From assembly GCF_058153355.1 (NCBI RefSeq), contig NZ_CM177019.1: DNA of 64,000 nt, one strand, 5' to 3'. Each line of letters opens with the position of its first letter. The first letter of the stretch is position 1. Below, in pieces: positions 1 through 20,279 of the stretch. The translations under genes were made by a program, and so were the position numbers. The notes below the pieces were generated by a model, which worked only from the letters and a program-made list of their open reading frames with translations, was not told where the DNA came from and made no database searches.

Positions 1-94
1 TGCTAAAATTTCTCTATCCCGGGATGCCCCTACCAACGCAGCACTCCCGGAGATATCATTACAGCTCTGCAACTGATTTCCGCGACTGAACCGC

Positions 95-505
95 TCAGTT
101 CCTATCCTTCCAGTTGCCTTCCTGCAGCCCCCCCTCCCTGCTGTATACCCCGGTACCACAACGCGGGCAGCACTTTTCTCCTTCATAATCTTCGTCACAC
201 ATCACACAAAACCACTTTCTCACCTTCACCGTATAATCCGGAACCGTCATACCCTGCAGATGCAAACGACGGGCCTCTTTCTCTGCCGGGTCAAGCCAGG
301 TGCATCGCAGCAGGATTTTCTCAGCGACAGTCATCTGGTCATGTTCAAACCACGGTGGTTGTCCGTCATTGCCCCGCTGAAGTGTTAACGGGCATCCACA
401 GGACACACAGCACAAAACGTCCTGGCGGTTGTGCTTCGCTGCTTCTTTCGCCGTAACAAAATGGCCTTTGCTGTCATTCGCCATATAACAGTTCAGAATT
501 CGCAT
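95..505 (-). CDS. hypothetical Cys-rich (putative zinc-binding) protein, paralog A
   Basis: ORF with AGGAGG 6 nt upstream of the ATG at 505; contains CxxC pairs and a PWFEH motif shared with the adjacent ORF. Start trimmed from the track ORF to the SD-supported ATG. Confidence 0.5.
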   Translation of the reverse strand: MRILNCYMANDSKGHFVTAKEAAKHNRQDVLCCVSCGCPLTLQRGNDGQPPWFEHDQMTVAEKILLRCTWLDPAEKEARRLHLQGMTVPDYTVKVRKWFCVMCDEDYEGEKCCPRCGTGVYSREGGLQEGNWKDRN

Positions 506-900
506 ATTTCCTCCTGAGTTGTCCGGGGAATACTGAATCCTCCGGTCTGGCAGTGTGTGCAGTACCGCTCCCCATAATAATCGTGGTGACATTGTCTGCA
601 GTGCCAGCTGGCTTTACGCACCACGGGTAAGGCACCCGGTACGAATTGCTGCAGACGTTTAATCAACTGTATTTCTCTGCGCTCCGGCCTGACATAAGGG
701 CACTGTTGACCGTGCTCTGTCAGCCTGTCGTCAGTGTGTTCAAACCAGGGAAGTTCAGTGTCGTATTGCGGATGGTATCTGAGTGCACTGCCACACAAGT
801 GGCAGGTGTAGTTAGCATAAGGTGCGGCCTGTGCAGTACGGGCGCCCGTCAGACGTCCGTTGCCATCAAGAGCGATAAAGGATTTTGCGTACATAGCCAT
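493..900 (-). CDS. hypothetical Cys-rich (putative zinc-binding) protein, paralog B
   Basis: 135-aa ORF with GAGGA before the ATG; CxxC pairs and a PWFEH motif; its stop lies 8 nt before the start of paralog A. Confidence 0.5.
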   Translation of the reverse strand: MAMYAKSFIALDGNGRLTGARTAQAAPYANYTCHLCGSALRYHPQYDTELPWFEHTDDRLTEHGQQCPYVRPERREIQLIKRLQQFVPGALPVVRKASWHCRQCHHDYYGERYCTHCQTGGFSIPRTTQEEICEF

Positions 901-1153
901 ATTCCTCAGCCGCCAGACGACACGCAGGCAACAGCCGTCCCGGTACGGGCAGCGTGGTCAGGGTGTGAATGGCGGTTCAGTTAAAATCTGGACTGGAGTT
1001 TGGGTAAAGCAGGCTGGTTGCTGTTACAGCACTGTGGTTGTCACACAATGGAACACTGACGTAAAAAACAGTCAGTGGGCGAGTGGATACATCGTTGCCG
1101 CCAGACAACAACCCATACTTTTGGTTTGCCGGATATTGGCGCGCCAGTCGTGC

Positions 1154-1759
1154 TCAACTCCGGCTACAGCCAAAATTGCGCTCACCGGTGCAGTGAGCTT
1201 TGGTATGTTCCTTCGCCAGATAGTCAGCACGTTCCAGCACCTGCTGAAAGCCAGTGTCATCATCGCGTTCCAGCCACACCGCCGGCCAGGCCGGAAAATG
1301 CACCAGCGTGGCATGGCACCCGACATCCACTCCCAGGGCACTGCACCACGCCTGTTTAATCATCCCGGCCAGTGATCCCGGAGCACGGTAATCACCGGCA
1401 CGACACCAGGTATCCCGGTTAACCAGCAGCATCAGGTGATAGTGTTTTTTACCTTTGCACTCCCCAAACTCCCGGGCCCAGACGTAATGCAGGGTTGTGG
1501 GATGCACGCGTTTACCTTCCCGATGCTTACGTTTCTGGTAAGCGTCGATTCGGGCTTTCAGGGCATTGATGAAGCGGGATATCACAGCTGCGTCCGTTGC
1601 TGCCGGTACATCCGGGAAACGCAGGTCAACCCGCAATGCCGTCAGGCGGGGATGAACATTCAGTGCGTGCCGCACCGTCTCACGAATACGTTGCTGCCAG
1701 AAGGGGTTGTATTTGTAGGTCATGGTTAAATCTCCGTATGGTTCATACGGAATAGCCAC
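1154..1759 (-). CDS. inovirus Gp2-family protein (YagK/YfjJ-like)
   Basis: 201-aa ORF; N-terminal MTYKYNPFWQQRIRE and overall sequence match my recollection of the YfjJ/YagK family in CP4 elements. True start may be the internal Met at 1723. Confidence 0.6.
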   Translation of the reverse strand: MAIPYEPYGDLTMTYKYNPFWQQRIRETVRHALNVHPRLTALRVDLRFPDVPAATDAAVISRFINALKARIDAYQKRKHREGKRVHPTTLHYVWAREFGECKGKKHYHLMLLVNRDTWCRAGDYRAPGSLAGMIKQAWCSALGVDVGCHATLVHFPAWPAVWLERDDDTGFQQVLERADYLAKEHTKAHCTGERNFGCSRS

Positions 1760-1918
1760 GTCGTAAAAAATGCGCAGAGTCCCTGAAGTGACCTCCGGCA
1801 GGACACTGTCTCAGGCACTCTGTGATACCCCAACTATCGTCTCCGGACTGACGGTTGAATTTTCAGCGTTGTTTTTTTAATGTAAAAAACCGGTTACGGG
1901 TAAGGCTGTGAGGAGGGA

Positions 1919-2116
1919 GTGATGGTGATACGCAAAAAGAAGTGCAGGGACTGTGGAAACGCGATTACTCATAATACATGTTGCCCGTATTGTGGTTCTG
2001 TCGACCCCTTCGGCTATTACCGGAATACAGACCGTATCGTTACCATACTGCTGGCACTGATTATTGTGGTCCTGCTGACTACTGTCAGCGTCAGTCAGTG
2101 TGTATATACTGTGTAG
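1919..2116 (+). CDS. small zinc-ribbon membrane protein (hypothetical)
   Basis: GGAGGG SD before the ATG; CxxC...CxxC followed by a hydrophobic helix. Preferred over the overlapping minus-strand ORF 1877..2197. Confidence 0.35.
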   Translation: MMVIRKKKCRDCGNAITHNTCCPYCGSVDPFGYYRNTDRIVTILLALIIVVLLTTVSVSQCVYTV

Positions 2117-3248
2117 CTGGTGAGATAACGGTTCATGTATCCCCTGAGCTGACAGTGTACCGGGTATATTAAGCGTAACCGACAGGTTCTCCTTCATACC
2201 ATATTAAATTTTTCCAGGTATTGCCGCTGCCTTATTTCGTCCCATACAGGAAAACTCGTCTGGGTTTCTGACAAATACGCGAAACTCACAGCCCCTCAAT
2301 ATCAACCACACGCTGTAAGCCGGTAATACCTGAAAATCAGCCTATTACCGCCCGCGCCTCCGTTACCGAACGCTCAGGTGACCAGACTGAAGCCCAGCAC
2401 GCACTCGTAAAATTTGCGGTCAGTTCCGTCAGTCAGTGGGCAACCGCAGAGTTACGGGCTTCCAGGTCCACAGGAGTGAGTCTATAACGCGTGTGGGAAA
2501 TCATTTTTTCTGGCGTTGACAGAACGCCTTACGGGCTGCCACTTACCCGGTGTCCCGCAATACAGCCTTAGTGTTCCGTTATCGGGGATCAGGACGCACC
2601 GCAACAACCGGGGAAGTATTTCTGGTTAGAGCTGTGTCAAGAGGGATTTCTCAGCCCCTCACTCACCGGCTCAGTCTCAGGGCAGAAGCATTAATACGCT
2701 CAGTTCATGTCTTATACAGGAATGGGCATGGGGGGAGCTGGCGTGTCACTGCTGATTTTACGCATCAGCGTTCATGTATCTGCACTCTGATACAGAATGC
2801 TTCACAGCGCTCTGTTACCGGAGAGATTTACTCTCTTAGGTTATTCTGGCAAATCCTTTACGTTACTCTCTGATGACTTCTTATATTTATAATACCAATC
2901 AGACAACCTTATCCCATCGGTGATATCAGTCTCCTGCTCGCCAGGAACGGGCTGACTCACTGTAACCACCTCCGAAAACAACTCTGCAATTATCAGAACG
3001 CCTGCTTCTCTCCCTGTCCTCACGAAAACTATCCCCTCTTTATCGCGCGTGCGTGCGGAAGCATCTTTTCGCAACAACCCCCCCGGGATTCCGCTACGGC
3101 TCTGCCATCGCAATCCCCCCGTTTATCTCCGGACAGCCACATTCCCGATTATTTTTTACGTTTCTCCCCGGTTGTTATGCCGGTGAAGGTGGCGCGCTGT
3201 TTTCATGACCACACCGGCTGGTTTAACAACATCCGGAGGAACATTCTC

Positions 3249-3455
3249 ATGGCTACCCCAGTTTCGCTGATGGATGACCAGATGGTCGACATGGCGTTTA
3301 TCACTCAACTGACCGGCCTAACCGATAAGTGGTTTGACAAACTCATCAAAGATGGGGGCTTTCCTGCGCCCATCAAAATGGGGCGCAGCTCCCGCTGGCT
3401 GAAAAGTGAAGTGGAAGCCTGGCTGCAGGCGCGTATTGCACAGTCCCGTCCGTAA
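3249..3455 (+). CDS. alpA: AlpA-family phage transcriptional regulator (Xis-like DNA-binding)
   Basis: 68-aa product with GGAGGA SD 8 nt upstream; sequence (ITQLTGL...WFDKLIKDGGFPAPIKMGRSSRWL) matches the AlpA family. Upstream part of the track ORF rejected. Confidence 0.8.
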   Translation: MATPVSLMDDQMVDMAFITQLTGLTDKWFDKLIKDGGFPAPIKMGRSSRWLKSEVEAWLQARIAQSRP

Positions 3456-3542
3456 TTTTTAACCACTAACCCTTCGCCCACAGCAGACGCAATCTCCGGC
3501 CTGCCGGCGGCGCTCTGCTGCCTGTTATCCCCCGTGAGGAAT

Positions 3543-4151
3543 ATGAAAATGAAACAACAGTATCAGACCCGTTACGAGCTGCTCCATGAAAACTACCAGA
3601 AATGGCTGACCGGCTTCACCCGGCACGCCGTATCATGGGGCGTGTGTCATCCGAATATCTACTATTTCCATAATCTGACGCCCGGGTGGGTGTCATTCAA
3701 TGGCGAAAAACCGGAGATTGCCATCGTTCCCCAGAGTCTGCACCGGCTGATTTATGGTCCGGACAAACGGAGCTCCCCGTCCCTGGATGATGATCTGGTG
3801 GTGAATTTATGCACCAGCGAACACCTGCTGGTTCATCATCCGATGCTGGAAGGGATCCTGCTGTCTGAATGTGAGCGCCTGAAGCAACATTCTCTGGCAA
3901 ACAAACTGATCAGCCTCTTCCGTCAGTTTGGCGGCACGGAGTTACGTCTCAAACTGGTCTGGCTCTGCTGGCTTGACTTAATGACCGGAAACAGCCTTGA
4001 CGACTGGACGAAAAACCTGAAACACAAATCAGAAAAAGATCTGGAGCAATGGATCATTGCACGTCAGGGTCAGAGTGAACCACTGACAAATCTGATGGAT
4101 CAGTACGTGCTTATGGCATACCGTACATCGGTTGATGCCGCTCACAGTTGA
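3543..4151 (+). CDS. hypothetical protein (CP4-like element)
   Basis: Long ORF with GAGGAA SD and an ATG start; no recognisable motifs. Confidence 0.45.
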   Translation: MKMKQQYQTRYELLHENYQKWLTGFTRHAVSWGVCHPNIYYFHNLTPGWVSFNGEKPEIAIVPQSLHRLIYGPDKRSSPSLDDDLVVNLCTSEHLLVHHPMLEGILLSECERLKQHSLANKLISLFRQFGGTELRLKLVWLCWLDLMTGNSLDDWTKNLKHKSEKDLEQWIIARQGQSEPLTNLMDQYVLMAYRTSVDAAHS

Positions 4152-5012: not shown

Positions 5013-6970
<1,958 letters not shown>

Positions 6971-9196: not shown

Positions 9197-10768
9197 ATGG
9201 ACACCTCACTTGCTCATGAGAATGCCCGCCTGCGGGCACTGTTGCAGACGCAACAGGACACCATCCGCCAGATGGCGAAATACAACCGCCTGCTCTCACA
9301 GCGGGTGGCGGCTTATGCTTCCGAAATCAACCGGCTGAAGGCGCTGGTTGCAAAACTGCAGCGCATGCAGTTCGGTAAAAGCTCAGAAAAACTTCGTGCA
9401 AAAACCGAACGGCAGATACAGGAAGCACAGGAGCGAATCAGCGCTCTTCAGGAAGAAATGGCGGAAACGCTGGGTGAGCAATATGACCCGGTACTGCCAT
9501 CTCCCCTGCGCCAGTCTTCAGCCCGTAAACCGTTACCTGCCTCACTTCCCCGTGAAACCCGGGTCATCCGTCCGGAAGAGGAATGCTGCCCGGCCTGTGG
9601 TGGCGAACTCAGTTCTCTGGGATGTGATGTGTCAGAGCAACTGGAGCTTATCAGCAGCGCCTTTAAGGTTATCGAAACACAACGTCCGAAACTGGCCTGT
9701 TGCCGGTGCGACCATATCGTGCAGGCTCCGGTGCCTTCAAAACCCATTGCACGCAGTTATGCCGGAGCGGGGCTTCTGGCCCATGTTGTCGCTGGAAAAT
9801 ATGCAGACCATCTGCCGTTATACCGCCAGTCAGAAATATACCGTCGTCAGGGCGTGGAGCTGAGCCGTGCCACACTGGGGCGCTGGACAGGTGCTGTTGC
9901 TGAACTGCTGGAACCGCTGTATGACATCCTGCGCCAGTATGTGCTGATGCCCGGTAAAGTCCATGCCGATGATATCCCCGTTCCGGTCCAGGAGCCGGGC
10001 AGCGGTAAAACAAGGACTGCCCGGCTGTGGGTCTACGTTCGTGATGACCGTAACGCCGGTTCGGAAATGCCTCCGGCGGTCTGGTTCGCGTACAGCCCGG
10101 ACCGGAAAGGTATCCATCCACAGAATCATCTGGCCGGTTACAGCGGAGTGCTTCAGGCCGATGCTTACGGTGGTTACCGGGCGTTGTACGAATCCGGCAG
10201 AATAACGGAAGCCGCATGTATGGCTCATGCCCGGAGAAAAATCCACGATGTGCATGCAAGAGTGCCCACCGACATCACCACGGAAGCCCTGCAGCGTATC
10301 GGTGAACTGTATGCCATCGAGGCAGAGGTCCGGGGCTGTTCAGCAGAACAGCGTCTGGCGGCAAGAAAAGCCAGAGCCGCGCCACTGATGCAGTCACTGT
10401 ATGACTGGATACAGCAACAGATGAAAACACTGTCGCGTCACTCGGACACGGCAAAAGCGTTCGCATACCTGCTGAAACAGTGGGATGCACTGAACGTGTA
10501 CTGCAGTAATGGCTGGGTGGAAATCGACAACAACATCGCAGAGAACGCCTTACGGGGAGTGGCCGTAGGCCGGAAAAACTGGCTCTTCGCGGGTTCTGAC
10601 AGCGGTGGTGAACATGCTGCGGTGTTGTACTCGCTGATCGGCACATGCCGTCTGAACAATGTGGAGCCAGAAAAGTGGCTGCGTTACGTCATTGAACATA
10701 TCCAGGACTGGCCGGCAAACCGGGTACGCGATCTGTTGCCCTGGAAAGTTGATCTGAGCTCTCAGTAA
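9197..10768 (+). CDS. IS66-family transposase TnpC
   Basis: 523-aa product with N-terminal coiled coil, a CxxC zinc-finger region and a DDE core; a second copy of its 3' two-thirds recurs at 53803..54843. Confidence 0.9.
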
Positions 10769-10967
10769 ATATCAATACGGTTCTGGCGAGCCGCTTACGT
10801 ACATCTTACAACAGAGACTGAATTTCCGGTTTTTCATAACCGGCGCATTCCGGAAAGTGCAGGCGGCCCGGAGGTTTTCTGACGCCACTACCTGGTAGAT
10901 TGTTCTGTACATCATGTACGGAGGTTTTTGTTTGCTTTTTTAAAATCTGCAAATGTGAGAAAAGCAG

Positions 10968-12131
10968 GTGAGGTGTATTGTGGGAAAGGAACTGGATGAT
11001 ATCTGCACCAGCTGTCCGTATATCGATGCTGTAAAACGGCACAAACAACAGCTCGGTGCCATAGAGGAATATACACAGTGGTTAAAAAAAGAACCACGGG
11101 CATCTTATTTTTTTCTGTTCCAGCTGTATACCCGCATTCACAATACATTTTTCTCCCAAAAGCAACAACTCCCGTTCACTCCCGGTGGCACTCACTGCCC
11201 GGAACCTGATGTCACCCTTCGGGACTTAACGCTTTCCCCTGGCTACCACAGTGATTATGCCCCTCAACCCATTCCGGAGATGGACAGTTCTGCTGTTGTT
11301 CCCCCAACTAATGAAAACACCTCGCCTCCGGAAGATACTCCCGACAACACTCCGGCCGGAGGCAATACCGGACAAGCGGAAAAGACCAGAAACGCAGGAC
11401 TCACACCCATTCCTGAAAAACGTTCAGGAATGCCCCCGGAACATCTGCGGTTTGCCACGGGGTTTCCATCGCAACCGAAGATTGCCGGTCCCAGAGAAAA
11501 GCCGATGCGCACCGTGCATCCGGATAAAATCTACCGTGAAATTATATGGTTCTGCTCCAGTTACCTGCTGAAATCCGGACCAGAGGCTACGAGGACGATT
11601 ATCAACTCAGTATTCTCTGAATGGGCCAGCATAAACAATGATTACCCCTCCCCCTTTTCGTGGGTGGACAGCAGGGACAGTGAACAGTGTGACTGGTTAT
11701 GGAACGCCATGCAGGTCCGGTGTGTGGGAACCCCGCTGAATCCCCTTACCCCGGAGCAGAAATACTGGTTTGCCTGCGCCACGTTTGATAACTGGGAGGG
11801 CTGGAATGAGCAACAGGTACAGTTTTTACTGGAAAGTAATCCCAGACGGAACAGAGCGAAGTTTACGCAGGTCTCCTTCCAGGCCCCCAGGATTCAGCAT
11901 AAAGCGATTCTTCTTGATGAGCTGAAAAGTGCCCGGGAGCAACAAAAAAGGCGTGATGAACGTGCTGATGGTTCCGTCCCTCTGAAACTGTCCGGAAAAA
12001 TCCACAAACAGCTTGAAAGTATTGCCCGAAGTCGTGGTGTCCTCCCAAAAAAACTGCTGAATGAAATGATTGAGCAGGCGTACCATGATTTGGTGGCAAC
12101 CAGGCAGAACTGCCAAATCGATTCCAGATAA
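10968..12131 (+). CDS. hypothetical protein (island backbone)
   Basis: 387-aa ORF with no recognisable motif; the true start may be further downstream. Confidence 0.4.
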   Translation: MRCIVGKELDDICTSCPYIDAVKRHKQQLGAIEEYTQWLKKEPRASYFFLFQLYTRIHNTFFSQKQQLPFTPGGTHCPEPDVTLRDLTLSPGYHSDYAPQPIPEMDSSAVVPPTNENTSPPEDTPDNTPAGGNTGQAEKTRNAGLTPIPEKRSGMPPEHLRFATGFPSQPKIAGPREKPMRTVHPDKIYREIIWFCSSYLLKSGPEATRTIINSVFSEWASINNDYPSPFSWVDSRDSEQCDWLWNAMQVRCVGTPLNPLTPEQKYWFACATFDNWEGWNEQQVQFLLESNPRRNRAKFTQVSFQAPRIQHKAILLDELKSAREQQKRRDERADGSVPLKLSGKIHKQLESIARSRGVLPKKLLNEMIEQAYHDLVATRQNCQIDSR

Positions 12132-12214
12132 TTTCAGACAGATATTATTTCCGTGAATCCCCCGCCACCTTTCCGGTGCGCGGGGTTTTGTCTTTTTTCA
12201 CCGGGAATACATGT

Positions 12215-12874
12215 ATGAATCCGTCTGATGCCATTGAGGCAATTGAAAAACCGCTCTCCTCCCTGCCTTACTCACTTTCCCGTCACATCCTGGAACATCT
12301 GCGCAAACTCACCAGTCACGAACCCGTGCCTGGCATTATGGGTAAAAGCGGGGCCGGTAAATCCTCACTCTGTAATGCGCTGTTTCAGGGGGAGGTCACC
12401 CCGGTCAGTGATGTTCACGCCGGCACCCGGGAAGTGCAGCGCTTCCGTCTGAATGGCCATGGTCACAGCATGGTTATCACTGACCTGCCCGGGGTGGGCG
12501 AGAGCCGGGACAGGGATGCAGAGTATGAAGCCCTGTACCGTGACATTCTGCTCGAACTGGACCTGGTACTGTGGCTGATTAAAGCCGATGACCGTGCCCT
12601 GTCTGTGGATGAGTATTTCTGGCGACACATCCTGCACCGGGGACATCAGCGGGTACTGTTTGTGGTGATGCAGGCCGATAAAACGGAGCCCTGCCATGAA
12701 TGGGATATGGCCGGTATTCAGCCTTCTCCCGCAGAGGCACAGAACATTCGCGAAAAAACGGAGGCGGTATTCCGTCTGTTCCGGCCCGTACATCGGGTTG
12801 TTGCCGTATCGGCCCGCACCGGCTGGGAACTGAACCCGGTGGTGATGTACCAGGCTGTTGTTACAGATTTTTAA
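12215..12874 (+). CDS. yeeP: YeeP/YfjP/YkfA-family small GTPase (50S ribosome-binding GTPase-like)
   Basis: G1 motif GIMGKSGAGKSS and G3 motif DLPG; backbone gene of CP4-type elements; may be C-terminally shorter than YfjP. Confidence 0.65.
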   Translation: MNPSDAIEAIEKPLSSLPYSLSRHILEHLRKLTSHEPVPGIMGKSGAGKSSLCNALFQGEVTPVSDVHAGTREVQRFRLNGHGHSMVITDLPGVGESRDRDAEYEALYRDILLELDLVLWLIKADDRALSVDEYFWRHILHRGHQRVLFVVMQADKTEPCHEWDMAGIQPSPAEAQNIREKTEAVFRLFRPVHRVVAVSARTGWELNPVVMYQAVVTDF

Positions 12875-13050
12875 CTCCATGAAAACACTATGCAAACGCA
12901 GCCATACCCGGGTTGTCCCCTTGCGTTGTGTTTCTCAAGTTAATAGAATACATCAATCGTTACTATCATATCGATCGTTATAAACAATCGTTTGTAGTAA
13001 ATGACCTCCTCCGTGGTTGTCATGAAAATGCGTCTTAGGAAGGTTAAATA

Positions 13051-15447
13051 ATGCACGAAAAGAACATCGCCCTGCTTTGTGATGAAGCCGACCGACTTTT
13101 GCAACTGAACATTAATCTGCTCCGGCAAATGGTTGAGGAGCCAGATGTGTTATCTGACAGTAAGAACGAAAACAGACTGCTTTTTGATAAACAGAAAGCA
13201 CTGAAAAGAATTGAGGAGCTGGAGGGCGAACAAATCAAAACCGCCCGCAGGGAGATGGTGCTGGCTGTTGTCGGCACGATGAAAGCAGGCAAATCAACCA
13301 CCATCAACGCCATTGTGGGGCAGGAAATTCTGCCTAACCGTAACCGCCCCATGACCTCTGTACCGACGCTCATCCGCCACGTTCCCGGAAAAACTGAGCC
13401 GGTTCTCCATCTGGAACATATTCAGCCTGTCCGCAATTTATTAATCACACTGCAGGAAAAACTCGCCACCCCGGCAGGACAGCAGGTCGCACAGACCCTG
13501 CAGCAAACCGGGGATACCCGCGAACTGCTGGATATTCTGACGGATGATGGCTGGCTCAAAAATGAATACCACGGGGAGGAGGAAATCTTTACCGGACTGG
13601 CATCGTTAAACGATCTGGTTCGTCTTGCTGCGGCAATGGGGACTGAATTTCCTTTTGATGAATACGCAGAAGTGCAGAAACTGCCGGTGATCGACGTGGA
13701 ATTCAGCCATCTGGTGGGGATGGATGCATGCCAGGGAACACTCACACTGCTGGATACCCCCGGCCCTAATGAGGCCGGACAACCGCAGATGGAAGTGATG
13801 ATGCGGGATCAACTGCAGAAAGCCTCTGCGGTTCTGGCTGTGATGGATTACACCCAGATGAACTCAAAAGCGGATGAAGACGTCCGTAAAGAGCTTAATG
13901 CCATTGCTGACGTATCAGCCGGCCGCCTGTTTGTACTGGTCAATAAATTTGATGAGAAAGACCGCAATGGCGATGGGGCAGATGCCGTACGCCAGAAAGT
14001 TCCGGCAATGCTGAACAGCGATGTGCTGCCCGCCTCCCGCGTTTATCCCGGATCCTCACGCCAGGCATACCTGGCTAACCGTGCGCTTCATGAGTTACGG
14101 AAAAACGGAACCCTTCCTGTTGATGAAGCCTGGGTCGATGATTTTATCAGAGGTGCCTTCGGTTGCATGAAAAAAGAATACGTCTGTAAAGACAGTGAAC
14201 TGGCAACTGAAGGGGCGACAGACCTGTGGGAAGGCTCACTTATCGATCAACTGATAACGGAAGTCATACAGAGCTCACATTCCAGAGCTGCGGCACTGGC
14301 GGTTGACTCTGCCGCCGCAAAACTGATGCAGAATGCAGAAAATATCAGTGAATACCTGTTGTTACGCCATCAGGGGCTACAGCAAAGCATTCAGTCACTG
14401 CAGTCGCATATCACCAGCCTGCTTGCGGATATCCGGGAAATCGCGGACTGTCAGGAGCAGATGACCACTGATGTCAGAATGGCCATGGAGGAGATCGATA
14501 CTAAAACCCGGGAATTACTGACGGGGGTCTGCACCTCACTGGAAGAGGAGCTGAATGACTATTTCAGAAGCGGTAAACGCAAAGAACAGCAAATGCTGGA
14601 GGAAGAAGACGCAGAACAACGAAGGTCTCAGTCCGGATTATGGGGGAAAATTTCTCAATGGTCCGGTATCAACAACCAGGGCCGGGAGGATTACAGGAAA
14701 CGAGATTTTGCCCCGGACAGCCCCGAAATAAAATTCAGTGATCGCAGGGAAGCCCTTGAACTGATGACGCAAATCGAATCGACCGTGACCAGCCTGCACC
14801 GTGAGGCTGAAGCACAGTTCCGGCCTGAGCTGGAGAAAATCGTCAGCGGGATTGAAACAGGTTTTCGTGGCACGGCCCTGTACGCCACAGAAAACATTGC
14901 CGGTCGCATCAATGCCCGCCTGGAGGATGAGGGCTTTACCGTAAAAATCAGTTTTCCGGCAGTCAGCCAGTTACAGACCCGGCTCGCGGTAAAAATAAAT
15001 CTGAGTGCGCTTATGGAGGAAAGAACGGAGACCGTCACCCGTCGCCGTCGGCAGAGTGGCGTATGGGGAACCGTTTGTCGATGGTTTGGCACCAGTGACC
15101 TGGGCTGGGAAAACTATGACGAGGATGTGAGTCGCAGCGTGATCAATATCAACAAGGTCAGAGAGGAAGTTATGTCACTGACCCGGGCATATTTCGGGGA
15201 GCTGCAGGCATCCATTGAGCAGGATATTAACCAGCCCGTCCGCCAGGAAATCGATGCCTTTTTCTGCGCATTCAGGGAGAAAGTTGAACAACTGCGTAAC
15301 ACGCTGATTCAGAGCTCTGAAGATCATAAACGCGATCAGCAGGCGCAGGAACGGCTTACCGGGCGACTTCAGGCATTAAATGAAAGGGTTCCTGAGCTCA
15401 TTACTGACAGTAAGGCGCTGAGGGAAGAGCTGGAGACAATGCTGTGA
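13051..15447 (+). CDS. bacterial dynamin-like GTPase (798 aa)
   Basis: GGAAGG SD; G1 GTMKAGKST, G3 DTPG, G4 NKFD, followed by about 500 aa of helical/coiled-coil sequence. Confidence 0.8.
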   Translation: MHEKNIALLCDEADRLLQLNINLLRQMVEEPDVLSDSKNENRLLFDKQKALKRIEELEGEQIKTARREMVLAVVGTMKAGKSTTINAIVGQEILPNRNRPMTSVPTLIRHVPGKTEPVLHLEHIQPVRNLLITLQEKLATPAGQQVAQTLQQTGDTRELLDILTDDGWLKNEYHGEEEIFTGLASLNDLVRLAAAMGTEFPFDEYAEVQKLPVIDVEFSHLVGMDACQGTLTLLDTPGPNEAGQPQMEVMMRDQLQKASAVLAVMDYTQMNSKADEDVRKELNAIADVSAGRLFVLVNKFDEKDRNGDGADAVRQKVPAMLNSDVLPASRVYPGSSRQAYLANRALHELRKNGTLPVDEAWVDDFIRGAFGCMKKEYVCKDSELATEGATDLWEGSLIDQLITEVIQSSHSRAAALAVDSAAAKLMQNAENISEYLLLRHQGLQQSIQSLQSHITSLLADIREIADCQEQMTTDVRMAMEEIDTKTRELLTGVCTSLEEELNDYFRSGKRKEQQMLEEEDAEQRRSQSGLWGKISQWSGINNQGREDYRKRDFAPDSPEIKFSDRREALELMTQIESTVTSLHREAEAQFRPELEKIVSGIETGFRGTALYATENIAGRINARLEDEGFTVKISFPAVSQLQTRLAVKINLSALMEERTETVTRRRRQSGVWGTVCRWFGTSDLGWENYDEDVSRSVININKVREEVMSLTRAYFGELQASIEQDINQPVRQEIDAFFCAFREKVEQLRNTLIQSSEDHKRDQQAQERLTGRLQALNERVPELITDSKALREELETML

Positions 15448-16349
15448 CTTCACCATTTATTCAACAAATTGCTGATAACCGGGTATGTCAGGTACTCACC
15501 TGTCTTCCTGAAAAATTTGTGGTTGATTTCGCAAACGGAATCGATGTTGCACAGGAGCATATCCGCACGGCCGGAGAGAGCACGTTCTTCCGGCGTTTAA
15601 AAGAGGGGCTGACCGGCGAAGGCGCTGCACGGCAGAATGCCATCAATGCGTCGCTTGCACAGGGCGTTGAGGCGTCCCTGCGCTGGCTGACGGAGATGAC
15701 AACGTCACTTGCCACCACAAACTACGCGATTACCCGGGTAAACGACAGGGTCAGTTCACTGGTCAGTGATACAGCCAGGCTGGCGCATTATTCCGCAGAT
15801 ACGCGGGAGCAGTTACTCACCCTGGCCGATCAGGTTCACCATAAACTGAATCATCTTGAAGAAAAACTCCACCGTGTTGACCAGGTTCAGCGGGCGCAGT
15901 TACATCTTGAGCAGATATTCTCATGGTGGAGCGCCGGGCGATATGCGTCATTTTCCCCTGCCGGACGTTGTTATGTGGCACTTGAAGAGCTTCGCTGGGG
16001 CGCGTTTGGTGATGTGATACGTCAGAGCGAAACAGGCCAGGTTAACCAGCTACTGGATATTCTCAGACATAAAGCATTAACGCAGATGGCACAGGAGAGT
16101 GGCGGTAGTGCAACCGTGCGTCTGAACACTCTGGACTGGCTTGGTGGTCAGGGCCGGGAGCAGGCAGATAACGAGTGGCATGACGCGATTAACTGGCTGG
16201 GAGACTGGTGCAGTGAAGAGCAGCATCCGGTGATCTGGTCAACCACGCAGGCTGCAGAACACTTACCGGTTCGCATGCCTCGCCTCTGCTCTGCAGAACG
16301 CCTCTCTGAAAGTATGGTCGATGAAATATTTCAGAAGGGGGCTGCATGA
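15444..16349 (+). CDS. hypothetical helical protein, middle gene of the dynamin-patatin operon
   Basis: GTG start overlaps the upstream stop (GTGA) and its own stop overlaps the next ATG (ATGA); no recognisable motif. Confidence 0.55.
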   Translation: MTSPFIQQIADNRVCQVLTCLPEKFVVDFANGIDVAQEHIRTAGESTFFRRLKEGLTGEGAARQNAINASLAQGVEASLRWLTEMTTSLATTNYAITRVNDRVSSLVSDTARLAHYSADTREQLLTLADQVHHKLNHLEEKLHRVDQVQRAQLHLEQIFSWWSAGRYASFSPAGRCYVALEELRWGAFGDVIRQSETGQVNQLLDILRHKALTQMAQESGGSATVRLNTLDWLGGQGREQADNEWHDAINWLGDWCSEEQHPVIWSTTQAAEHLPVRMPRLCSAERLSESMVDEIFQKGAA

Positions 16350-17416
16350 GTACAGAAATGAAAACGGGGCTGGTGCTGTCCGGTGGCGGGGCGGTGGGCG
16401 CTTATCAGGCGGGAGTGGTTAAGGCACTGGCAGAGTGTGGTACACAGATCAGCATGGTTTCAGGGGCCAGCATTGGCGCATTCAATGGTGCCATTATCGC
16501 GGCCTCTCCCGATCTGTCAGAAGCTGCCGTACGCCTGGAGGCGCTCTGGGATCATCTGGGGAATAATCAGGTGCTGTCGGTAAACAGATTGGTTTACTTT
16601 TCATTGCTGAAAAAATTGTTCCAGGCAATGAACCTCTGCCAGATCCCCGGACGTGCAGGAGCACTGCTTACGACGCTTCTTCGCCATATATCGACAATCA
16701 ACGGGTTTGACAATCTGATGGCTCAGCCGTTGTTGTCAGATGAGCCCCTGACAGCGCTGATGGATCATTATCTTGATACTGATGCTCTGGCAGACGGGCT
16801 ACCGCTGTATGTGTCGCTGTACCCCACAGAAGGGGGCATGCAGGATATTATTGACTGCATTCGTGCTGAACTGGGTGTCGGAACCACGAAAAACGCCGTT
16901 TTTCAGCATATCCAGAGCCTGCCCCGCGGACAGCAGAAAGAGGCTCTGCTTGCGTCAGCCGCGCTGCCCCTGCTGTTCCGTCCCCGTGAGGTTCAGGGGA
17001 CAATGTTCGGTGATGGTGGTATGGGAGGATGGCGAAATATGCAGGGAAATACCCCTGTGACGCCTCTGGTCGATGCCGGATGCAATATGGTGATTGTGAC
17101 GCATCTGAGTGACGGTTCTTTATGGGATCGCCAGGCTTTTCCGGACACCACAATCCTTGAGATCCGTCCCCGGAAAAGGCTGAAATATGCAGGTGATGGT
17201 GGCAACAGCGGCGGTCTGCTCAGTTTTACATCGGCACATACCGACGCCTGGCGTCAGCAGGGCTATGAAGACACGATGCTGGCGATGGAGCATATCCGGA
17301 AACCGCTGGCAGCACGTCAGGCACTGACCCGGTCAGAGGCGGTATTGCAGAAAAGCCTGGATATAACGGAAGAGGCAGATTTGGCACTGAGAAACGCGAT
17401 GGCCCGGATTAAATAA
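16346..17416 (+). CDS. patatin-like phospholipase
   Basis: Oxyanion-hole motif SGGGAVGAYQAG, nucleophile elbow GASIG (GxSxG) and catalytic Asp in FGDGG; translationally coupled to the upstream gene. Confidence 0.8.
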   Translation: MSTEMKTGLVLSGGGAVGAYQAGVVKALAECGTQISMVSGASIGAFNGAIIAASPDLSEAAVRLEALWDHLGNNQVLSVNRLVYFSLLKKLFQAMNLCQIPGRAGALLTTLLRHISTINGFDNLMAQPLLSDEPLTALMDHYLDTDALADGLPLYVSLYPTEGGMQDIIDCIRAELGVGTTKNAVFQHIQSLPRGQQKEALLASAALPLLFRPREVQGTMFGDGGMGGWRNMQGNTPVTPLVDAGCNMVIVTHLSDGSLWDRQAFPDTTILEIRPRKRLKYAGDGGNSGGLLSFTSAHTDAWRQQGYEDTMLAMEHIRKPLAARQALTRSEAVLQKSLDITEEADLALRNAMARIK

Positions 17417-17746
17417 AGACGCCCCAAAGAAACGCCACCGCCTGTGGTGGTGTTTTTCCTGTCTGGTGTTATTGAAAATATTTTCATATATATATTACCT
17501 GAGAGAAAGTTTTACCCCTCACCTGTCAATTCACTCACTGGAAATTTAATTATGAAATTACCTGTAAAGTTATTAATGAGCCTTATATCTCTGGTCAGCG
17601 TTATTGCACGTGCCGGGGAATATAAAAATTACAGCCGGGATGAAATAAAATACTGGCGATATACATCATACAAGGGGGGGAAACTTCCGGAAGGTTTCAC
17701 TGATGAGAAATTTTCCAGCGCCATTTACAACGGAAGAATATTTACA

Positions 17747-18235
17747 ATGAAACGTTTACATACCCTTATGTTATTTCTGGCGGTTCTGTTCACGGGCTTT
17801 AACTTTAACGCAGAAGCGGCTACCGTAAAACAAGCTCTTAGTTGTAACCCGGAAGCCTGGGCTGAACAACCTGGAGCGTGTCCATCAACGTACGAGTTGT
17901 ACGAAGGTGACGCTACCTACAAAGCCGCTATCGACAAAGCATTAAAACCGGTCGGACTGAGCGGCATGTTCGGTAAAGGCGGCTATATGGATGGCCCTGG
18001 TGGAGGTATCACGCCAGTAAACATTAACGGTACAGTCTGGTTCCAGGGCGACGGTTGCAAAGCCAATACCTGCGGCTGGGACTTTATCGTAACACTCTAT
18101 AACCCAAAAACCCATGAAGTTGTTGGCTACCGTTACTTTGGTTTAGATGACCCGGCCTACCTGGTTTGGTTCGGTGAAATTGGCGTGCATGAATTCGCGT
18201 ATCTGGTGAAAAACTACGTAGCTGCGGTTAACTAA
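17747..18235 (+). CDS. secreted protein, possibly Ivy-like (inhibitor of vertebrate lysozyme family)
   Basis: Signal peptide MKRLHTLMLFLAVLFTGFNFNAEA; CKANTCG motif resembles the Ivy CKPHDCG loop; AT-rich codon usage. N-terminal extension in the track ORF rejected. Confidence 0.45.
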   Translation: MKRLHTLMLFLAVLFTGFNFNAEAATVKQALSCNPEAWAEQPGACPSTYELYEGDATYKAAIDKALKPVGLSGMFGKGGYMDGPGGGITPVNINGTVWFQGDGCKANTCGWDFIVTLYNPKTHEVVGYRYFGLDDPAYLVWFGEIGVHEFAYLVKNYVAAVN

Positions 18236-18250
18236 TTTAAGGAGTCTATC

Positions 18251-18661
18251 ATGAAAACTTTTATCAAAACTTTACTCGTTGCTGTAACTATTCTGTTCTC
18301 TGTCTTCGCTACTGCGAAACAAGTAAAACTGCCAAATAACATCAAATACGTTAATACTACAGAAGCGTTTTCCTGTACCGAAATTGACGGTATGAATTGC
18401 CAGACAAAGAATCAGTTCAACTATAAAGATAACAGCTATGTTTTCGTGCTTGAACGTGGTGGTGCCTGGTGCTACGACTACACTGTCTCGGTAGTTAACC
18501 TGAAAACCGGGAAAGCACAAATGATTGAATACGGGGACAATCAACTGTGCTCAGGTAGCAACAAACCGTTCTTCGAAATCAAAAATGGCGTACCGACGGT
18601 AGGAGTCATCGACACATCCGGAAAACCTGTCGTTGTAGCCCAGGACAAACTTAAAATCTAA
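18251..18661 (+). CDS. small secreted hypothetical protein
   Basis: Strong SD TAAGGAG; signal peptide; four Cys; AT-rich. Confidence 0.55.
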   Translation: MKTFIKTLLVAVTILFSVFATAKQVKLPNNIKYVNTTEAFSCTEIDGMNCQTKNQFNYKDNSYVFVLERGGAWCYDYTVSVVNLKTGKAQMIEYGDNQLCSGSNKPFFEIKNGVPTVGVIDTSGKPVVVAQDKLKI

Positions 18662-18881
18662 GGAGTAAACCATGCGTTTCTCTGCACATTATTAATATCA
18701 AAGGTAAATACAGCCCCAGCCATTGTTACCGGAAAGCCGCTTAATGCGTGGCTCGCCAGTGAAAGGCCTCTCAGACAATAAACCTTATTCATTTCACCCG
18801 TCAGGCCGCGTCTTCTCCGGGAGACGCGGCTTTTTTCATTTATTGCACCAGTAAATCTTAACCACCGATAAGGAGCAAAGT

Positions 18882-19703
18882 ATGCGATTAGCAAGTCGTT
18901 TTGGTTATGCTGCAAACCAGATACGCCGTGACCGTCCGCTGACACATGAAGAACTGATACGCCATGTACCCAGTATTTTTGGGGAAGACCGGCACACCTC
19001 CCGCAGTGAACGGTATGCGTACATTCCCACCATTACCGTCCTGGAAAATCTGCAGCGGGAAGGCTTTCAGCCGTTCTTCGCCTGCCAGACCCGTGTGCGC
19101 GACCCGGGCCGCCGGGGATACACAAAACACATGCTGCGTCTGCGGCGGGCCGGAGAGATAAACGGAGAACATGTCCCTGAAATTATTCTGCTCAACTCTC
19201 ATGACGGTACCTCCAGCTACCAGATGCTGCCGGGTTACTTCAGGTTCGTCTGCCAGAACGGGTGCGTCTGTGGCCAGTCTCTGGGGGAAGTGCGTGTTCC
19301 ACACCGGGGAAATGTAGTGGAGAAAGTTATCGAAGGGGCTTACGAGGTGGTGGGCGTGTTTGACCGGATAGAGGAGAAGCGTGATGCCATGCAGTCGCTG
19401 GTCCTGCCGCCACCGGCACGCCAGGCGCTGGCACAGGCGGCACTGACTTACCGTTATGGTGACGAACATCAGCCCGTCACCACCGCCGACATTCTGACGC
19501 CGCGACGCCGGGAGGATTACGGTAAGGACCTGTGGAGCGCATATCAGACCATCCAGGAGAATATGCTGAAAGGCGGGATTTCCGGTCGCAGTGCAAAAGG
19601 AAAACGTATCCATACCCGGGCCATTCACAGCATTGATACCGACATTAAGCTCAATCGCGCATTGTGGGTGATGGCAGAAACGATGCTGGAGAGCCTGCGC
19701 TGA
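18882..19703 (+). CDS. DUF932-family protein (YfjQ/YafZ-like)
   Basis: 273-aa product with AAGGAG SD; conserved backbone position after the GTPase in CP4 elements; family assigned from recall. Confidence 0.65.
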   Translation: MRLASRFGYAANQIRRDRPLTHEELIRHVPSIFGEDRHTSRSERYAYIPTITVLENLQREGFQPFFACQTRVRDPGRRGYTKHMLRLRRAGEINGEHVPEIILLNSHDGTSSYQMLPGYFRFVCQNGCVCGQSLGEVRVPHRGNVVEKVIEGAYEVVGVFDRIEEKRDAMQSLVLPPPARQALAQAALTYRYGDEHQPVTTADILTPRRREDYGKDLWSAYQTIQENMLKGGISGRSAKGKRIHTRAIHSIDTDIKLNRALWVMAETMLESLR

Positions 19704-19784
19704 TGCCGTTTCCCTGAGTGAGGGAATCATTCAGCTTTCGTTCCTGAAAAACACACATTTATTTGTTATTTAAGGAGTTATCTC

Positions 19785-20264
19785 ATGAAAACCGTTTCTC
19801 AGAATACCCCCACAATTTATTCAGCTACAACACCAGAGAATAATCCGCCTCAGTTGGTTGCCAGCCTCGTCCCTGATGAACAGCGCATCAGCTTCTGGCC
19901 GCAGCATTTTGGCCTCATTCCACAGTGGGTGACCCTGGAGCCCCGTGTCTTCGGCTGGATGGACCGTCTGTGCGAAGACTACTGCGGTGGTATCTGGAAT
20001 CTGTACACCCTGAACAACGGCGGGGCATTTATGGCACCCGAACCGGATGACGATGATGACGAAACATGGGTACTGTTCAATGCCATGAACGGTAACCGCG
20101 CAGAAATGAGCCCGGAAGCCGCCGGTATTGCCGCCTGTCTGATGACGTACAGTCATCATGCCTGTCGTACGGAGAATTATGCCATGACGGTCCATTATTA
20201 CCGGTTGCGGGATTACGCCCTGCAGCATCCGGAATGCAGCGCCATTATGCGCATCATCGACTGA
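19785..20264 (+). CDS. antirestriction protein (ArdB/KlcA family; YfjX/YafX-like)
   Basis: 159-aa acidic protein with TAAGGAG SD, in the usual backbone position before the RadC-like gene. Confidence 0.6.
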   Translation: MKTVSQNTPTIYSATTPENNPPQLVASLVPDEQRISFWPQHFGLIPQWVTLEPRVFGWMDRLCEDYCGGIWNLYTLNNGGAFMAPEPDDDDDETWVLFNAMNGNRAEMSPEAAGIAACLMTYSHHACRTENYAMTVHYYRLRDYALQHPECSAIMRIID

Positions 20265-20279
20265 ATGGAGAGAAGCACA

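What the first reader, a model, noticed from the sequence alone, without database searches (positions are those of the whole stretch)
95..900. Tandem paralogous Cys-rich proteins with shared PWFEH motif
Two adjacent ORFs of about 135 aa each carry CxxC pairs and a PWFEH motif in equivalent positions, 8 bp apart, with the downstream SD inside the upstream gene's end. They look like a duplicated zinc-binding module of unknown function next to the Gp2-family gene.
Basis: seen in the sequence. Interest (0 to 1): 0.3.

Follow-up and report, generated by a model that had tools for sequence, protein, structure and literature searches.

The report
Paired zinc-ribbon genes of CP4-type islands
Two overlapping neighbouring genes encode related small zinc-binding proteins of an already catalogued but uncharacterised enterobacterial family that sits behind the Gp2-like and AlpA genes of integrative genomic islands: real and conserved, but ordinary and already annotated.

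Summary
On the minus strand, gene A (493..894, 133 aa; ORF to 900) and gene B (95..505, 136 aa) are paralogs (30% identity, E 4e-15). CxxC, PWFEH and the CxxC-x9-CxxC ribbon fall at the same residue numbers in both. The one correction is spacing: B most likely starts at ATG505, behind AGGAGG, so the genes overlap by 13 nt rather than lying 8 bp apart.

Each is a complete copy of a known architecture, Pfam DUF7828 + Zn_ribbon_11. They are not halves of a frameshifted gene. Both are exact RefSeq proteins ("putative zinc ribbon protein"), and the pair occurs in 2987 of 5426 complete E. coli genomes.

New here:
- The family is restricted to Enterobacterales.
- It always lies on the same strand behind a Gp2-like (HUH Rep-like) gene and/or AlpA, at the edge of variable cargo.
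- A-before-B order and the 13-nt overlap are conserved across genera.
- dN/dS is 0.1-0.3.
- The N-terminal half is homologous to the zinc finger of the recombination nuclease CoiA, without the nuclease domain.

Function remains inferred. The likeliest role is a non-catalytic accessory of the island's Gp2-like/AlpA module. No solved structure matches, a linked A-B model showed no confident interface, and no paper mentions the family. Low interest; already known.

The parts
493..894 (-). Gene A (A-type 'putative zinc ribbon protein', RefSeq WP_000270975.1, 133 aa). The ORF extends to ATG900 (135 aa).
   Evidence: Pfam DUF7828 106.9 bits and Zn_ribbon_11 38 bits. The N-terminus MYAKSF is conserved in A-type homologs.
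95..505 (-). Gene B (B-type 'zinc-ribbon domain-containing protein', RefSeq WP_001221617.1, 136 aa).
   Evidence: Pfam DUF7828 106 bits and Zn_ribbon_11 64.7 bits. AF2 model mean pLDDT 88.9.
493..505 (-). 13-nt overlap between the end of A and the start of B (ATGCGAATTCTGA), suggesting translational coupling.
   Evidence: The annotated coordinates give the same 13-nt overlap in the Klebsiella plasmid L014 (7001-7013), L018, L019 and L023.
509..514 (-). AGGAGG Shine-Dalgarno for B, inside the 3' end of gene A.
   Evidence: Read directly from the sequence.
637..891 (-). DUF7828 domain of A: a CoiA_N-like zinc finger with candidate ligands C33, C36, H55 and C67 (numbering from ATG900), plus a helical extension.
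   Evidence: residues 4-88. Conservation. hhalign to CoiA_N.
517..615 (-). Zn_ribbon_11 domain of A (W99, C101, C104, C114, C117).
   Evidence: (residues 96-128).
239..496 (-). DUF7828 domain of B (C33, C36, F53, H55, C68).
   Evidence: (residues 4-89).
134..229 (-). Zn_ribbon_11 domain of B (W98, C100, C103, C113, C116).
   Evidence: (residues 93-124).
1154..1723 (-). Upstream same-strand gene: inovirus Gp2 family / YagK_YfjJ_C protein (RefSeq WP_000221530.1). It carries an HUH-like motif, HYHLMLLV. The ORF extends to 1759.
   Evidence: Pfam E 1.1e-47 plus a weak REP_ORF2-G2P hit. Annotation.
3249..3455 (+). AlpA-family helix-turn-helix regulator/excisionase gene of the same island. Here it lies on the opposite strand; in most other loci it sits directly upstream of the zinc-ribbon genes.

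Best explanation
SHOWN. Window 95-900 holds two intact, separately encoded, overlapping paralogous genes of the Enterobacterales-restricted 'putative zinc ribbon protein' family (Pfam DUF7828 + Zn_ribbon_11). A is upstream and B downstream. Each product has two predicted metal sites. The first is an N-terminal finger (C33, C36, H55, C67/68) whose first about 50 residues are homologous to the N-terminal zinc finger of the recombination nuclease CoiA. The second is a C-terminal CxxC-x9-CxxC ribbon, joined to the first by a helix. There is no catalytic domain. The genes are under purifying selection. They are the last genes of a conserved same-strand block, Gp2-like (HUH Rep-like) then AlpA then an optional ribbon-only mini ORF then an optional A then B. 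This block sits at the border between the conserved core and the variable cargo/integrase side of P4-integrase-type (CP4-like) genomic islands, and occasionally on large plasmids. INFERRED. The proteins are non-enzymatic zinc-dependent binding modules that serve the island's own Gp2-like/AlpA machinery. The likeliest action is recognition of a DNA site or DNA structure, such as the nick site, an ssDNA/dsDNA junction or an att region, or of the Gp2-like protein itself, during excision, replication or transfer of the island. A and B probably act together or on a common partner, because their order and the 13-nt coupling overlap are conserved across genera. The identity and context part is near certain. 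The functional part is a guess from context and from the CoiA_N relationship.
For: Paralogy: BLASTP E 4e-15. Domain content: both Pfam models score far above their cut-offs in both proteins and in all 35 diverse members. Invariant residues are C33, C36, F53, H55, W98, C100, C103, C113 and C116, with C68 near-invariant. Selection: dN/dS is 0.10-0.31 for A, B and the X type, at dS 0.16-2.2. Abundance: the pair occurs in 2987 of 5426 complete E. coli genomes, with any match in 3818 and a median of 2 places per genome. Both exact proteins are seen on at least 1000 contigs. Range: there are 464 clusters at 90% identity; the named ones among the best 120 listed are Enterobacterales, apart from one near-identical copy labelled Veillonella, and all 120 carry only these two domains. 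There are 166 representatives at 50% identity. The family has no match in 50,697 phage records and matches in only 32 of 72,556 plasmid records. Synteny: Gp2-like then AlpA then the zinc-ribbon gene(s) lie on one strand in L003-L009, L011 and L012. The same holds in L014, while L020 shows AlpA followed by the pair. In the species-representative loci, all 12 with upstream DNA have a Gp2-like gene upstream of the zinc-ribbon gene(s), and 11 of them also have AlpA between; they come from 11 genera. Where visible, cargo and an integrase lie downstream. A-before-B order with overlap is seen in the window, L014, L018/19, L023, L030, L031, L033 and L034. CoiA_N homology: hhalign of the family profile against a validated CoiA N-terminus gives 93% probability, E 3e-7, over 50 columns running from the first strand through CxxC to PWFEH/PHFAH. 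That CoiA N-terminus scores 24.7 bits on DUF7828. 14 of 35 family members give sub-threshold CoiA_N hits, the best at 7e-5. A Moellerella member carries the CoiA-type HFFFAH motif together with Zn_ribbon_11. A natural fusion, P0187, has an extra DUF7828 domain on a B-type protein placed next to an A-type gene. CoiA is described as a D-loop-processing PD-(D/E)XK enzyme with a small putative N-terminal zinc finger (bioRxiv 10.1101/2024.02.06.579203).
Confidence: 0.5

Rival explanations
1. A and B are independent, partly redundant paralogs that do not form a complex. On this view the tandem arrangement is only the trace of duplication, and each copy has its own DNA or protein specificity.
For: The linked A-B AF2 model has pTM 0.35 with no confident interface. 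Single-copy islands are common. Copy number varies from 1 to at least 3 (L012). B can be replaced by a third paralog type X. Recombinant A/B and B/X chimeras exist in the databases.
Against: A-before-B order and the exact 13-nt overlap are kept across genera, although A and B are only about 30% identical to each other. Both copies are under purifying selection. A natural fusion joins two DUF7828 domains in one chain.
Confidence: 0.25
2. They are anti-defence or defence-related proteins: small zinc proteins that block or decoy a host or phage nuclease to protect island DNA, rather than parts of the island's replication or excision machinery.
For: The genes sit at the edge of the variable cargo region. 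In other loci that region holds defence-type genes: SMEK_N/CTD10/MC6/DUF2326, KwaA and HsdR. The islands also carry antirestriction, RadC and DUF932 genes. Near-neutral charge fits protein binding better than non-specific DNA binding. A CoiA_N-like domain without the nuclease could act as a competitor.
Against: PADLOC gives no match, the best being E 0.067, and PHROGs gives none. The genes belong to the conserved block, not to the variable cargo. They are absent from 50,697 phage records.
Confidence: 0.15
3. They are zinc-finger transcription activators of the P2 Ogr / P4 Delta kind that act on RNA polymerase.
For: The evidence is analogy only. The setting is a P4-integrase-type island. Ogr and Delta are small Cys4 proteins, and P4 Delta is a tandem duplicate of an Ogr-like unit (my own knowledge of that family).
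Against: hhalign of the family profile against P2 Ogr gives 1.4% probability; that Ogr sequence was validated as Ogr_Delta at E 1e-21. No Ogr_Delta hit appears for A or B at E up to 1. The Cys spacing differs: CxxC-x9-CxxC here, against CxxC-x22-CxxxxC in the Ogr sequence used. The family has no match in any phage record.
Confidence: 0.07
4. The two ORFs are the halves of one frameshifted gene, or are decaying pseudogenes.
For: The genes overlap. Fused or chimeric versions exist in the databases (P0004, P0012, P0257), and many fragments are deposited.
Against: Each ORF spans the whole family profile with both domains. The two-gene form is the annotated one in the sampled complete E. coli genomes, and the pair sequence occurs in 2987 of 5426 of them, as well as in other genera. 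dN/dS is 0.1-0.3. The chimeras join at shared motifs such as PWFEH and look like secondary recombination or deletion events.
Confidence: 0.01

Closest known systems
Pfam DUF7828 (PF25165) + Zn_ribbon_11 (PF11682, formerly DUF3279); RefSeq 'putative zinc ribbon protein' / 'zinc-ribbon domain-containing protein'
   Same: Both window proteins are full-length members, with scores 4-fold and 1.6-2.7-fold above the gathering cut-offs. They are identical to RefSeq WP_000270975.1 and WP_001221617.1.
   Different: There is no difference: this is the family. It has no assigned function and no literature.
CoiA (competence protein; D-loop-processing PD-(D/E)XK nuclease of natural transformation), N-terminal zinc-finger domain CoiA_N (PF25164)
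   Same: The first about 50 residues align, from the strand 'YxAxxxxG' through CxxC to the (P/H)-[WH]-F-x-H motif (hhalign 93%, E 3e-7). Reciprocal sub-threshold Pfam hits exist in both directions.
   Different: There is no CoiA nuclease domain; a helix plus a C4 zinc ribbon stands in its place. The first His of the HFxH motif is replaced by Trp, and a downstream Cys is conserved instead. The genomic setting also differs: genomic islands of Enterobacterales here, competence regulons of Firmicutes for CoiA.
DUF7830 (PF25169)
   Same: Sub-threshold hits in 14 of 35 family members. A Moellerella relative combines a DUF7830/CoiA_N-like N-terminus with Zn_ribbon_11.
   Different: Scores are below the cut-off, and that family is equally uncharacterised.
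P2 Ogr / P4 Delta zinc-finger late-gene activators (PF04606)
   Same: Both are small Cys-rich proteins of P4-related mobile elements, and Delta is an internal tandem duplicate.
   Different: There is no detectable sequence or profile similarity. The Cys spacing differs, and the window family has no match in any phage record.
Core gene sets of integrase/AlpA/Gp2-like genomic islands (CP4-57, CP4-6, CP4-44, SRL PAI; Pseudomonas islands transduced by jumbo phage)
   Same: The backbone is shared: a tyrosine integrase, AlpA, an inovirus Gp2-like gene, RadC, and variable cargo often holding defence genes (PNAS 2025, PMC12595487; SRL PAI table, PMC6980539).
   Different: Those descriptions do not mention the zinc-ribbon genes. 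K-12 CP4-6 lacks them.

Membership tests
DUF7828 + Zn_ribbon_11 'putative zinc ribbon protein' family | DUF7828 (PF25165) match above the gathering score (25.7 bits), covering the whole model | tested here: met
   A scores 106.9 bits (residues 4-88, model 1-86 of 87). B scores 106 bits (residues 4-89, model 2-86 of 87).
DUF7828 + Zn_ribbon_11 'putative zinc ribbon protein' family | Zn_ribbon_11 (PF11682) match above the gathering score (24 bits) at the C-terminus | tested here: met
   A scores 38.0 bits (residues 96-128). B scores 64.7 bits (residues 93-124).
DUF7828 + Zn_ribbon_11 'putative zinc ribbon protein' family | Family-invariant residues C33, C36, F53, H55, W98, C100, C103, C113, C116 (B numbering) | tested here: met
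   All are present in both A and B in the 35-sequence alignment A1.
DUF7828 + Zn_ribbon_11 'putative zinc ribbon protein' family | Position directly downstream, on the same strand, of a Gp2-like (YagK_YfjJ) and/or AlpA gene of a genomic island | tested here: met
   In the window, the Gp2-like gene at 1154-1723(-) is followed by A and then B. AlpA here is on the other strand at 3249-3455. In the other loci the order is Gp2-like, AlpA, then the zinc-ribbon gene(s).
DUF7828 + Zn_ribbon_11 'putative zinc ribbon protein' family | Actual binding of zinc at two sites | not testable with these tools
   Inferred only from ligand conservation.
CoiA (competence protein CoiA family) | CoiA_N (PF25164) N-terminal zinc finger | tested here: inconclusive
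   B scores 12.4 bits against a cut-off of 26.3. 14 of 35 members give sub-threshold hits. The profile comparison supports homology (93%, E 3e-7).
CoiA (competence protein CoiA family) | CoiA_nuc (PF06054) PD-(D/E)XK nuclease domain | tested here: not met
   No hit in A, B or any of the 35 members. The proteins end after a 30-residue zinc ribbon. They are therefore not CoiA family members.
Ogr/Delta zinc-finger activators (PF04606) | Ogr_Delta domain | tested here: not met
   No Pfam hit at E up to 1. hhalign probability is 1.4%.
Known anti-phage defence systems (PADLOC-DB 2.0) | Match to any defence-protein model | tested here: not met
   A has none; the best for B is E 0.067.
Phage protein families (PHROGs v4) / phage genomes | Match to a phage protein family, or presence in phage records | tested here: not met
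   The best PHROGs hit is E 0.039. tblastn against 50,697 phage records gives no match.

The most novel reading that the evidence does not exclude
The A/B pair, with the ribbon-only mini ORF where present, would be a dedicated recognition subunit for the Gp2-like HUH protein of CP4-type islands. On this reading a nuclease-less descendant of the CoiA targeting finger binds a specific DNA structure (nick site, ssDNA/dsDNA junction or D-loop). By doing so it would license rolling-circle replication or transfer of the excised island. That would give a first function to DUF7828/Zn_ribbon_11, and also to the widespread YagK/YfjJ proteins, in about 70% of complete E. coli genomes.
Probability: 0.15. 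Interest if true: 0.5.

Novelty: already known. Interest (0 to 1): 0.2.

Why it matters
The practical value is modest. [quoted passage not shown] It belongs to the conserved backbone of CP4-type islands, which carry virulence, toxin-antitoxin and defence cargo. Three leads from this work give experimenters something concrete to test:
- The pair is tied to the Gp2-like/AlpA block.
- It carries a CoiA-type finger without a nuclease.
- The A-before-B coupled arrangement is conserved across genera.

None of this changes a current view, and the family is already in Pfam and RefSeq.

Tried and rejected
Searches that found nothing:
- NCBIfam gave no family for A, B or the Gp2-like protein.
- PADLOC and PHROGs gave nothing useful.
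- A sequence search of the PDB gave nothing below E 0.18.
- Foldseek against the PDB gave no hit below E 0.9.
- Literature searches for DUF3279, PF11682, Zn_ribbon_11, DUF7828 and PF25165 returned 0 papers. Searches on YfjJ, YagK and Gp2 returned only island gene tables.
- Rfam on window 1-22000 found nothing.

Runs that failed or were inconclusive:
- The AlphaFold-database fold library was not installed.
It was repeated with a B-type alignment.
- A first paired A-B alignment mis-registered the A-type singletons. It was rebuilt with linker anchors.
- The resulting linked A-B model gave pTM 0.35, so it neither supports nor excludes a complex.
- The promoter/terminator scan of 1-3600 did not exceed the shuffled expectation. 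The one minus-strand promoter-like site upstream of the Gp2-like gene (1886-1859) is not evidence on its own.
- dN/dS for B within E. coli was uninformative: only 5 differences in the core, and the apparent 0.91 comes from an alternative C-terminal tail.

Hypotheses rejected: a frameshifted single gene, Ogr/Delta membership and CoiA membership.

Full report
**What is in the sequence**

The minus strand of window 95-900 carries two ORFs. A runs 493..900: 135 aa from the first ATG, and 133 aa from ATG894, the RefSeq start, with the conserved N-terminus MYAKSF. B is listed as 95..592, but its plausible start is ATG505 (MRILNCY..., 136 aa). AGGAGG lies 4 nt upstream at 514-509. RefSeq uses that start, and homologs conserve the MR[IM]LKCY N-terminus. 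A's stop codon is at 495-493, so the genes overlap by 13 nt.

BLASTP of A against B gives 30% identity over 125 residues, E 4e-15. With A numbered from ATG900 and B from ATG505, the features line up as follows:

| Feature | A | B |
|---|---|---|
| CxxC | C33, C36 | C33, C36 |
| PWFEH | 51-55 | 51-55 |
| Single Cys | 67 | 68 |
| Ribbon CxxC-x9-CxxC | C101, C104, C114, C117 | C100, C103, C113, C116 |

The PWFEH codons are also the only direct DNA repeat shared by the two genes (342-360 and 737-755).

**Identity**

Both proteins match Pfam DUF7828 (106.9 and 106 bits; cut-off 25.7) and Zn_ribbon_11 (38 and 64.7 bits; cut-off 24), each over the full model. Each ORF is therefore a complete copy of a two-domain architecture, not half of a broken gene. 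A family HMM covers positions 2-130 in A and 1-127 in B.

The window is E. coli chromosome, 100% identical to several complete genomes. It lies in a CP4-44-type island remnant next to cobUST. RefSeq names the products "putative zinc ribbon protein" (WP_000270975.1) and "zinc-ribbon domain-containing protein" (WP_001221617.1). The 806-nt pair matches 3818 of 5426 complete E. coli genomes, with at least 80% coverage in 2987 and a median of two places per genome. Both exact proteins are recorded on at least 1000 contigs.

NCBIfam, PADLOC and PHROGs have no model for them. No paper in the library mentions DUF3279, PF11682, Zn_ribbon_11 or DUF7828.

**The family**

An exhaustive HMMER scan of 1.84 billion cluster representatives found only 166 with E no higher than 1e-3. 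A profile search of the 5.8-billion-sequence set found 464 clusters. The named ones among the best 120 come from Escherichia, Salmonella, Klebsiella, Enterobacter, Citrobacter, Yersinia, Serratia, Rahnella, Edwardsiella and Lelliottia, apart from one near-identical copy labelled Veillonella. All 120 carry only these two Pfam domains. Moellerella, Hafnia, Budvicia and others were added by other searches.

There is no match in 50,697 phage records, and matches in only 32 of 72,556 plasmid records.

In a 35-sequence alignment the invariant residues are C33, C36, F53, H55, W98, C100, C103, C113 and C116, with C68, Y107, G109, K111, G119 and S122 near-invariant. This pattern implies a C2HC-type site in the N-terminal domain and a C4 ribbon at the C-terminus. 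Zinc binding itself is an inference.

Two clades are recognisable: the A type (MYAKSF...) and the B type (MR[IM]LKCY...). A third type, X, replaces B in some E. coli islands.

dN/dS is 0.10-0.31 for A, B and X across dS 0.16-2.2, so the genes are maintained by selection. The value of 0.91 for B within E. coli is an artefact of an alternative C-terminal tail and too few core differences.

**Structure and remote homology**

Sequence profiles are more informative. 14 of 35 members give sub-threshold hits to CoiA_N, the best at 7e-5, and to DUF7830. It scores 24.7 bits on DUF7828. hhalign of the family profile against it gives 93% probability, E 3e-7, over 50 columns, from the first strand through CxxC to PWFEH/PHFAH. 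A Moellerella relative has the CoiA-type HFFFAH motif joined to Zn_ribbon_11.

CoiA is described as a PD-(D/E)XK enzyme needed to process the transformation D-loop, with a small putative zinc finger at its N-terminus (bioRxiv 10.1101/2024.02.06.579203). The window proteins have the finger but no nuclease domain, so they are relatives of one CoiA domain and not CoiA family members. P2 Ogr shows no similarity (1.4%).

**Context**

This is the strongest evidence for function. In metagenomic and genomic loci holding divergent members, the zinc-ribbon gene or genes follow a YagK_YfjJ (Gp2-like) gene and an AlpA gene on the same strand (L003-L009, L011, L012). On the other side a GTPase / antirestriction / DUF932 arm is transcribed divergently. 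Downstream of the zinc-ribbon genes lies variable cargo: SMEK_N/CTD10/MC6/DUF2326, KwaA, HsdR or SrfB. In L004 and L005 a tyrosine integrase follows.

A scan of one genome per species returned 13 loci from Raoultella, Entomohabitans, Kosakonia, Cedecea, Serratia, Hafnia, Klebsiella, Superficieibacter, Yokenella, Pseudocitrobacter and Budvicia. It also returned a Collinsella MAG contig that is 98% identical to E. coli and likely a contaminant. Twelve of these loci have upstream DNA. All 12 show a Gp2-like gene upstream on the same strand, and 11 also have AlpA between it and the zinc-ribbon gene(s).

Two layouts recur:
- Gp2-like, AlpA, B alone.
- Gp2-like, AlpA, a 44-aa ribbon-only ORF, A, B, then a second Gp2-like gene.

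The second layout also occurs on a 342-kb Klebsiella IncFIB/IncHI1B plasmid, with the same 13-nt A/B overlap.

In the window AlpA is on the opposite strand (3249-3455), the order is Gp2-like, A, B, and the integrase side has been replaced by IS remnants. K-12 CP4-6 has yagK but no zinc-ribbon gene.

Published descriptions of such islands list integrase, AlpA, Gp2-like and RadC as core genes and do not mention these genes. The descriptions checked were the SRL PAI (PMC6980539) and the Pseudomonas islands moved by a jumbo phage (PMC12595487).

**Do A and B work together?**

Three things argue for it. A-before-B order and the coupling overlap are conserved across genera, even though A and B are only 30% identical to each other. 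Both copies are under purifying selection. A natural fusion protein (P0187) carries an extra DUF7828 domain next to an A-type gene.

Two things argue against or leave it open. An AF2 model of A-(GGGGS)6-B, built on 7 paired rows plus anchored singletons, has well-folded halves but pTM 0.35, meaning no confident interface. Single-copy islands are also common. The test was weak: a monomer model, an artificial linker, a shallow pairing, and no PAE returned.

**Most likely mechanism**

Shown: these are conserved, selected, non-catalytic two-zinc-site proteins encoded with the Gp2-like and AlpA genes at the border between core and cargo of CP4-type islands.

Inferred: they are binding modules that serve that block. 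The likeliest action is recognition of a DNA site or structure, or of the Gp2-like HUH-type protein, during excision, replication or transfer. The Gp2-like protein carries an HYHLMLLV motif and gives a weak REP_ORF2-G2P match.

The near-neutral charge (pI 6.2-8.7) is a point against simple DNA binding and keeps a protein-binding or anti-defence role open. I put about 0.9 on the identity and context statement and about 0.3 on the functional statement.

**Verdict**

The object is an already annotated, very common family of unknown function. What this work adds is the synteny rule, the conservation of the A/B arrangement, the link to CoiA_N, and the exclusion of the frameshift, Ogr/Delta, CoiA-membership and known-defence readings. 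Interest is low (0.2), and the novelty class is "already known".

Noticed in passing
L014 6322-6453; L019 185-316; L012 4891-5034; L003 1854-2030; L031 4318-4449; L033 4309-4440; L034 4319-4450; L035 4404-4547: A 44-52 aa ORF consists only of the Zn_ribbon_11-like ribbon (e.g. MEKRRRTQPQAIPVRWTCPRCRRQYCGARPCPVCFRPTDAPAQP). Where flanking genes are visible it lies between AlpA and the next zinc-ribbon gene, most often an A-type gene. It is usually unannotated, and the window has none.
   Followed up: partly
L024 3570-3983; L022 5025-5405: In some E. coli islands a third paralog type (MNGIKTGLGITPGEHIISADSAL...) takes the place of B downstream of A. The databases also hold A/B and B/X chimeras (P0004, P0012, P0023, P0030, P0041), some joined exactly at PWFEH. 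This indicates recombination between the paralogs.
   Followed up: partly
window 95-135: B has two alternative C-terminal tails after the ribbon: ...YSREGGLQEGNWKDRN (136 aa, this window) and ...YSRAWGRQEVPSEDARADNPLQRL (144 aa, e.g. L023). Many genomes match the query only from window position about 120 onward, so a recombination or deletion breakpoint lies inside the last codons of B.
   Followed up: partly
L014 7493-8059; L031 5405-6058; L033 5405-6058; L034 5315-6037: A second, divergent Gp2-like gene follows directly after B in the loci that have the mini-ORF/A/B layout, so the zinc-ribbon genes are bracketed by two Gp2-like genes. The window has IS remnants at that position instead.
   Followed up: partly
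window 1-94 and upstream in NZ_CP010315.1 (L001 2394-11811): The island is truncated on the B side by IS material: an ISL3 pseudogene, IS4, and IS66/IS4 fragments. No integrase is left next to cobUST. An IS100 copy (istA/istB) is also inserted inside the island at about window 5080-6880.
   Followed up: no
window 1760-3250: About 1.5 kb between the Gp2-like gene and AlpA holds only one small annotated ORF (1922-2116, Cys-rich: MMVIRKKKCRDCGNAITHNTCCPYCGSVDPFGYY...). Related islands (L023, L024, SRL PAI) have an Hha/YmoA gene in this interval; none is annotated here.
   Followed up: no
window about 9740-20500 (L001 21739-27194, L002 618-4628): The rest of the island carries a YeeP-like GTPase, a dynamin-family protein, an RdcB-family protein and a patatin-like phospholipase. 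These are followed by DUF932, an antirestriction gene, RadC, YeeT, CbeA, a frameshifted CbtA and YeeW, which is a typical CP4-44-type right arm.
   Followed up: no
L025 (Collinsella sp. MAG contig JAIJJM010000559.1); P0012 (labelled Veillonella sp. MAG); P0040 (labelled Pseudomonas aeruginosa): Near-identical E. coli copies of these genes appear in assemblies labelled as unrelated taxa. This is most likely contamination or mis-binning, not real host range.
   Followed up: no
P0269, P0290, P0340, P0353, P0354: Several UniRef names for family members read 'DNA-directed RNA polymerase, beta subunit...'. This looks like a propagated mis-annotation of a zinc ribbon and is not evidence of function.
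   Followed up: no
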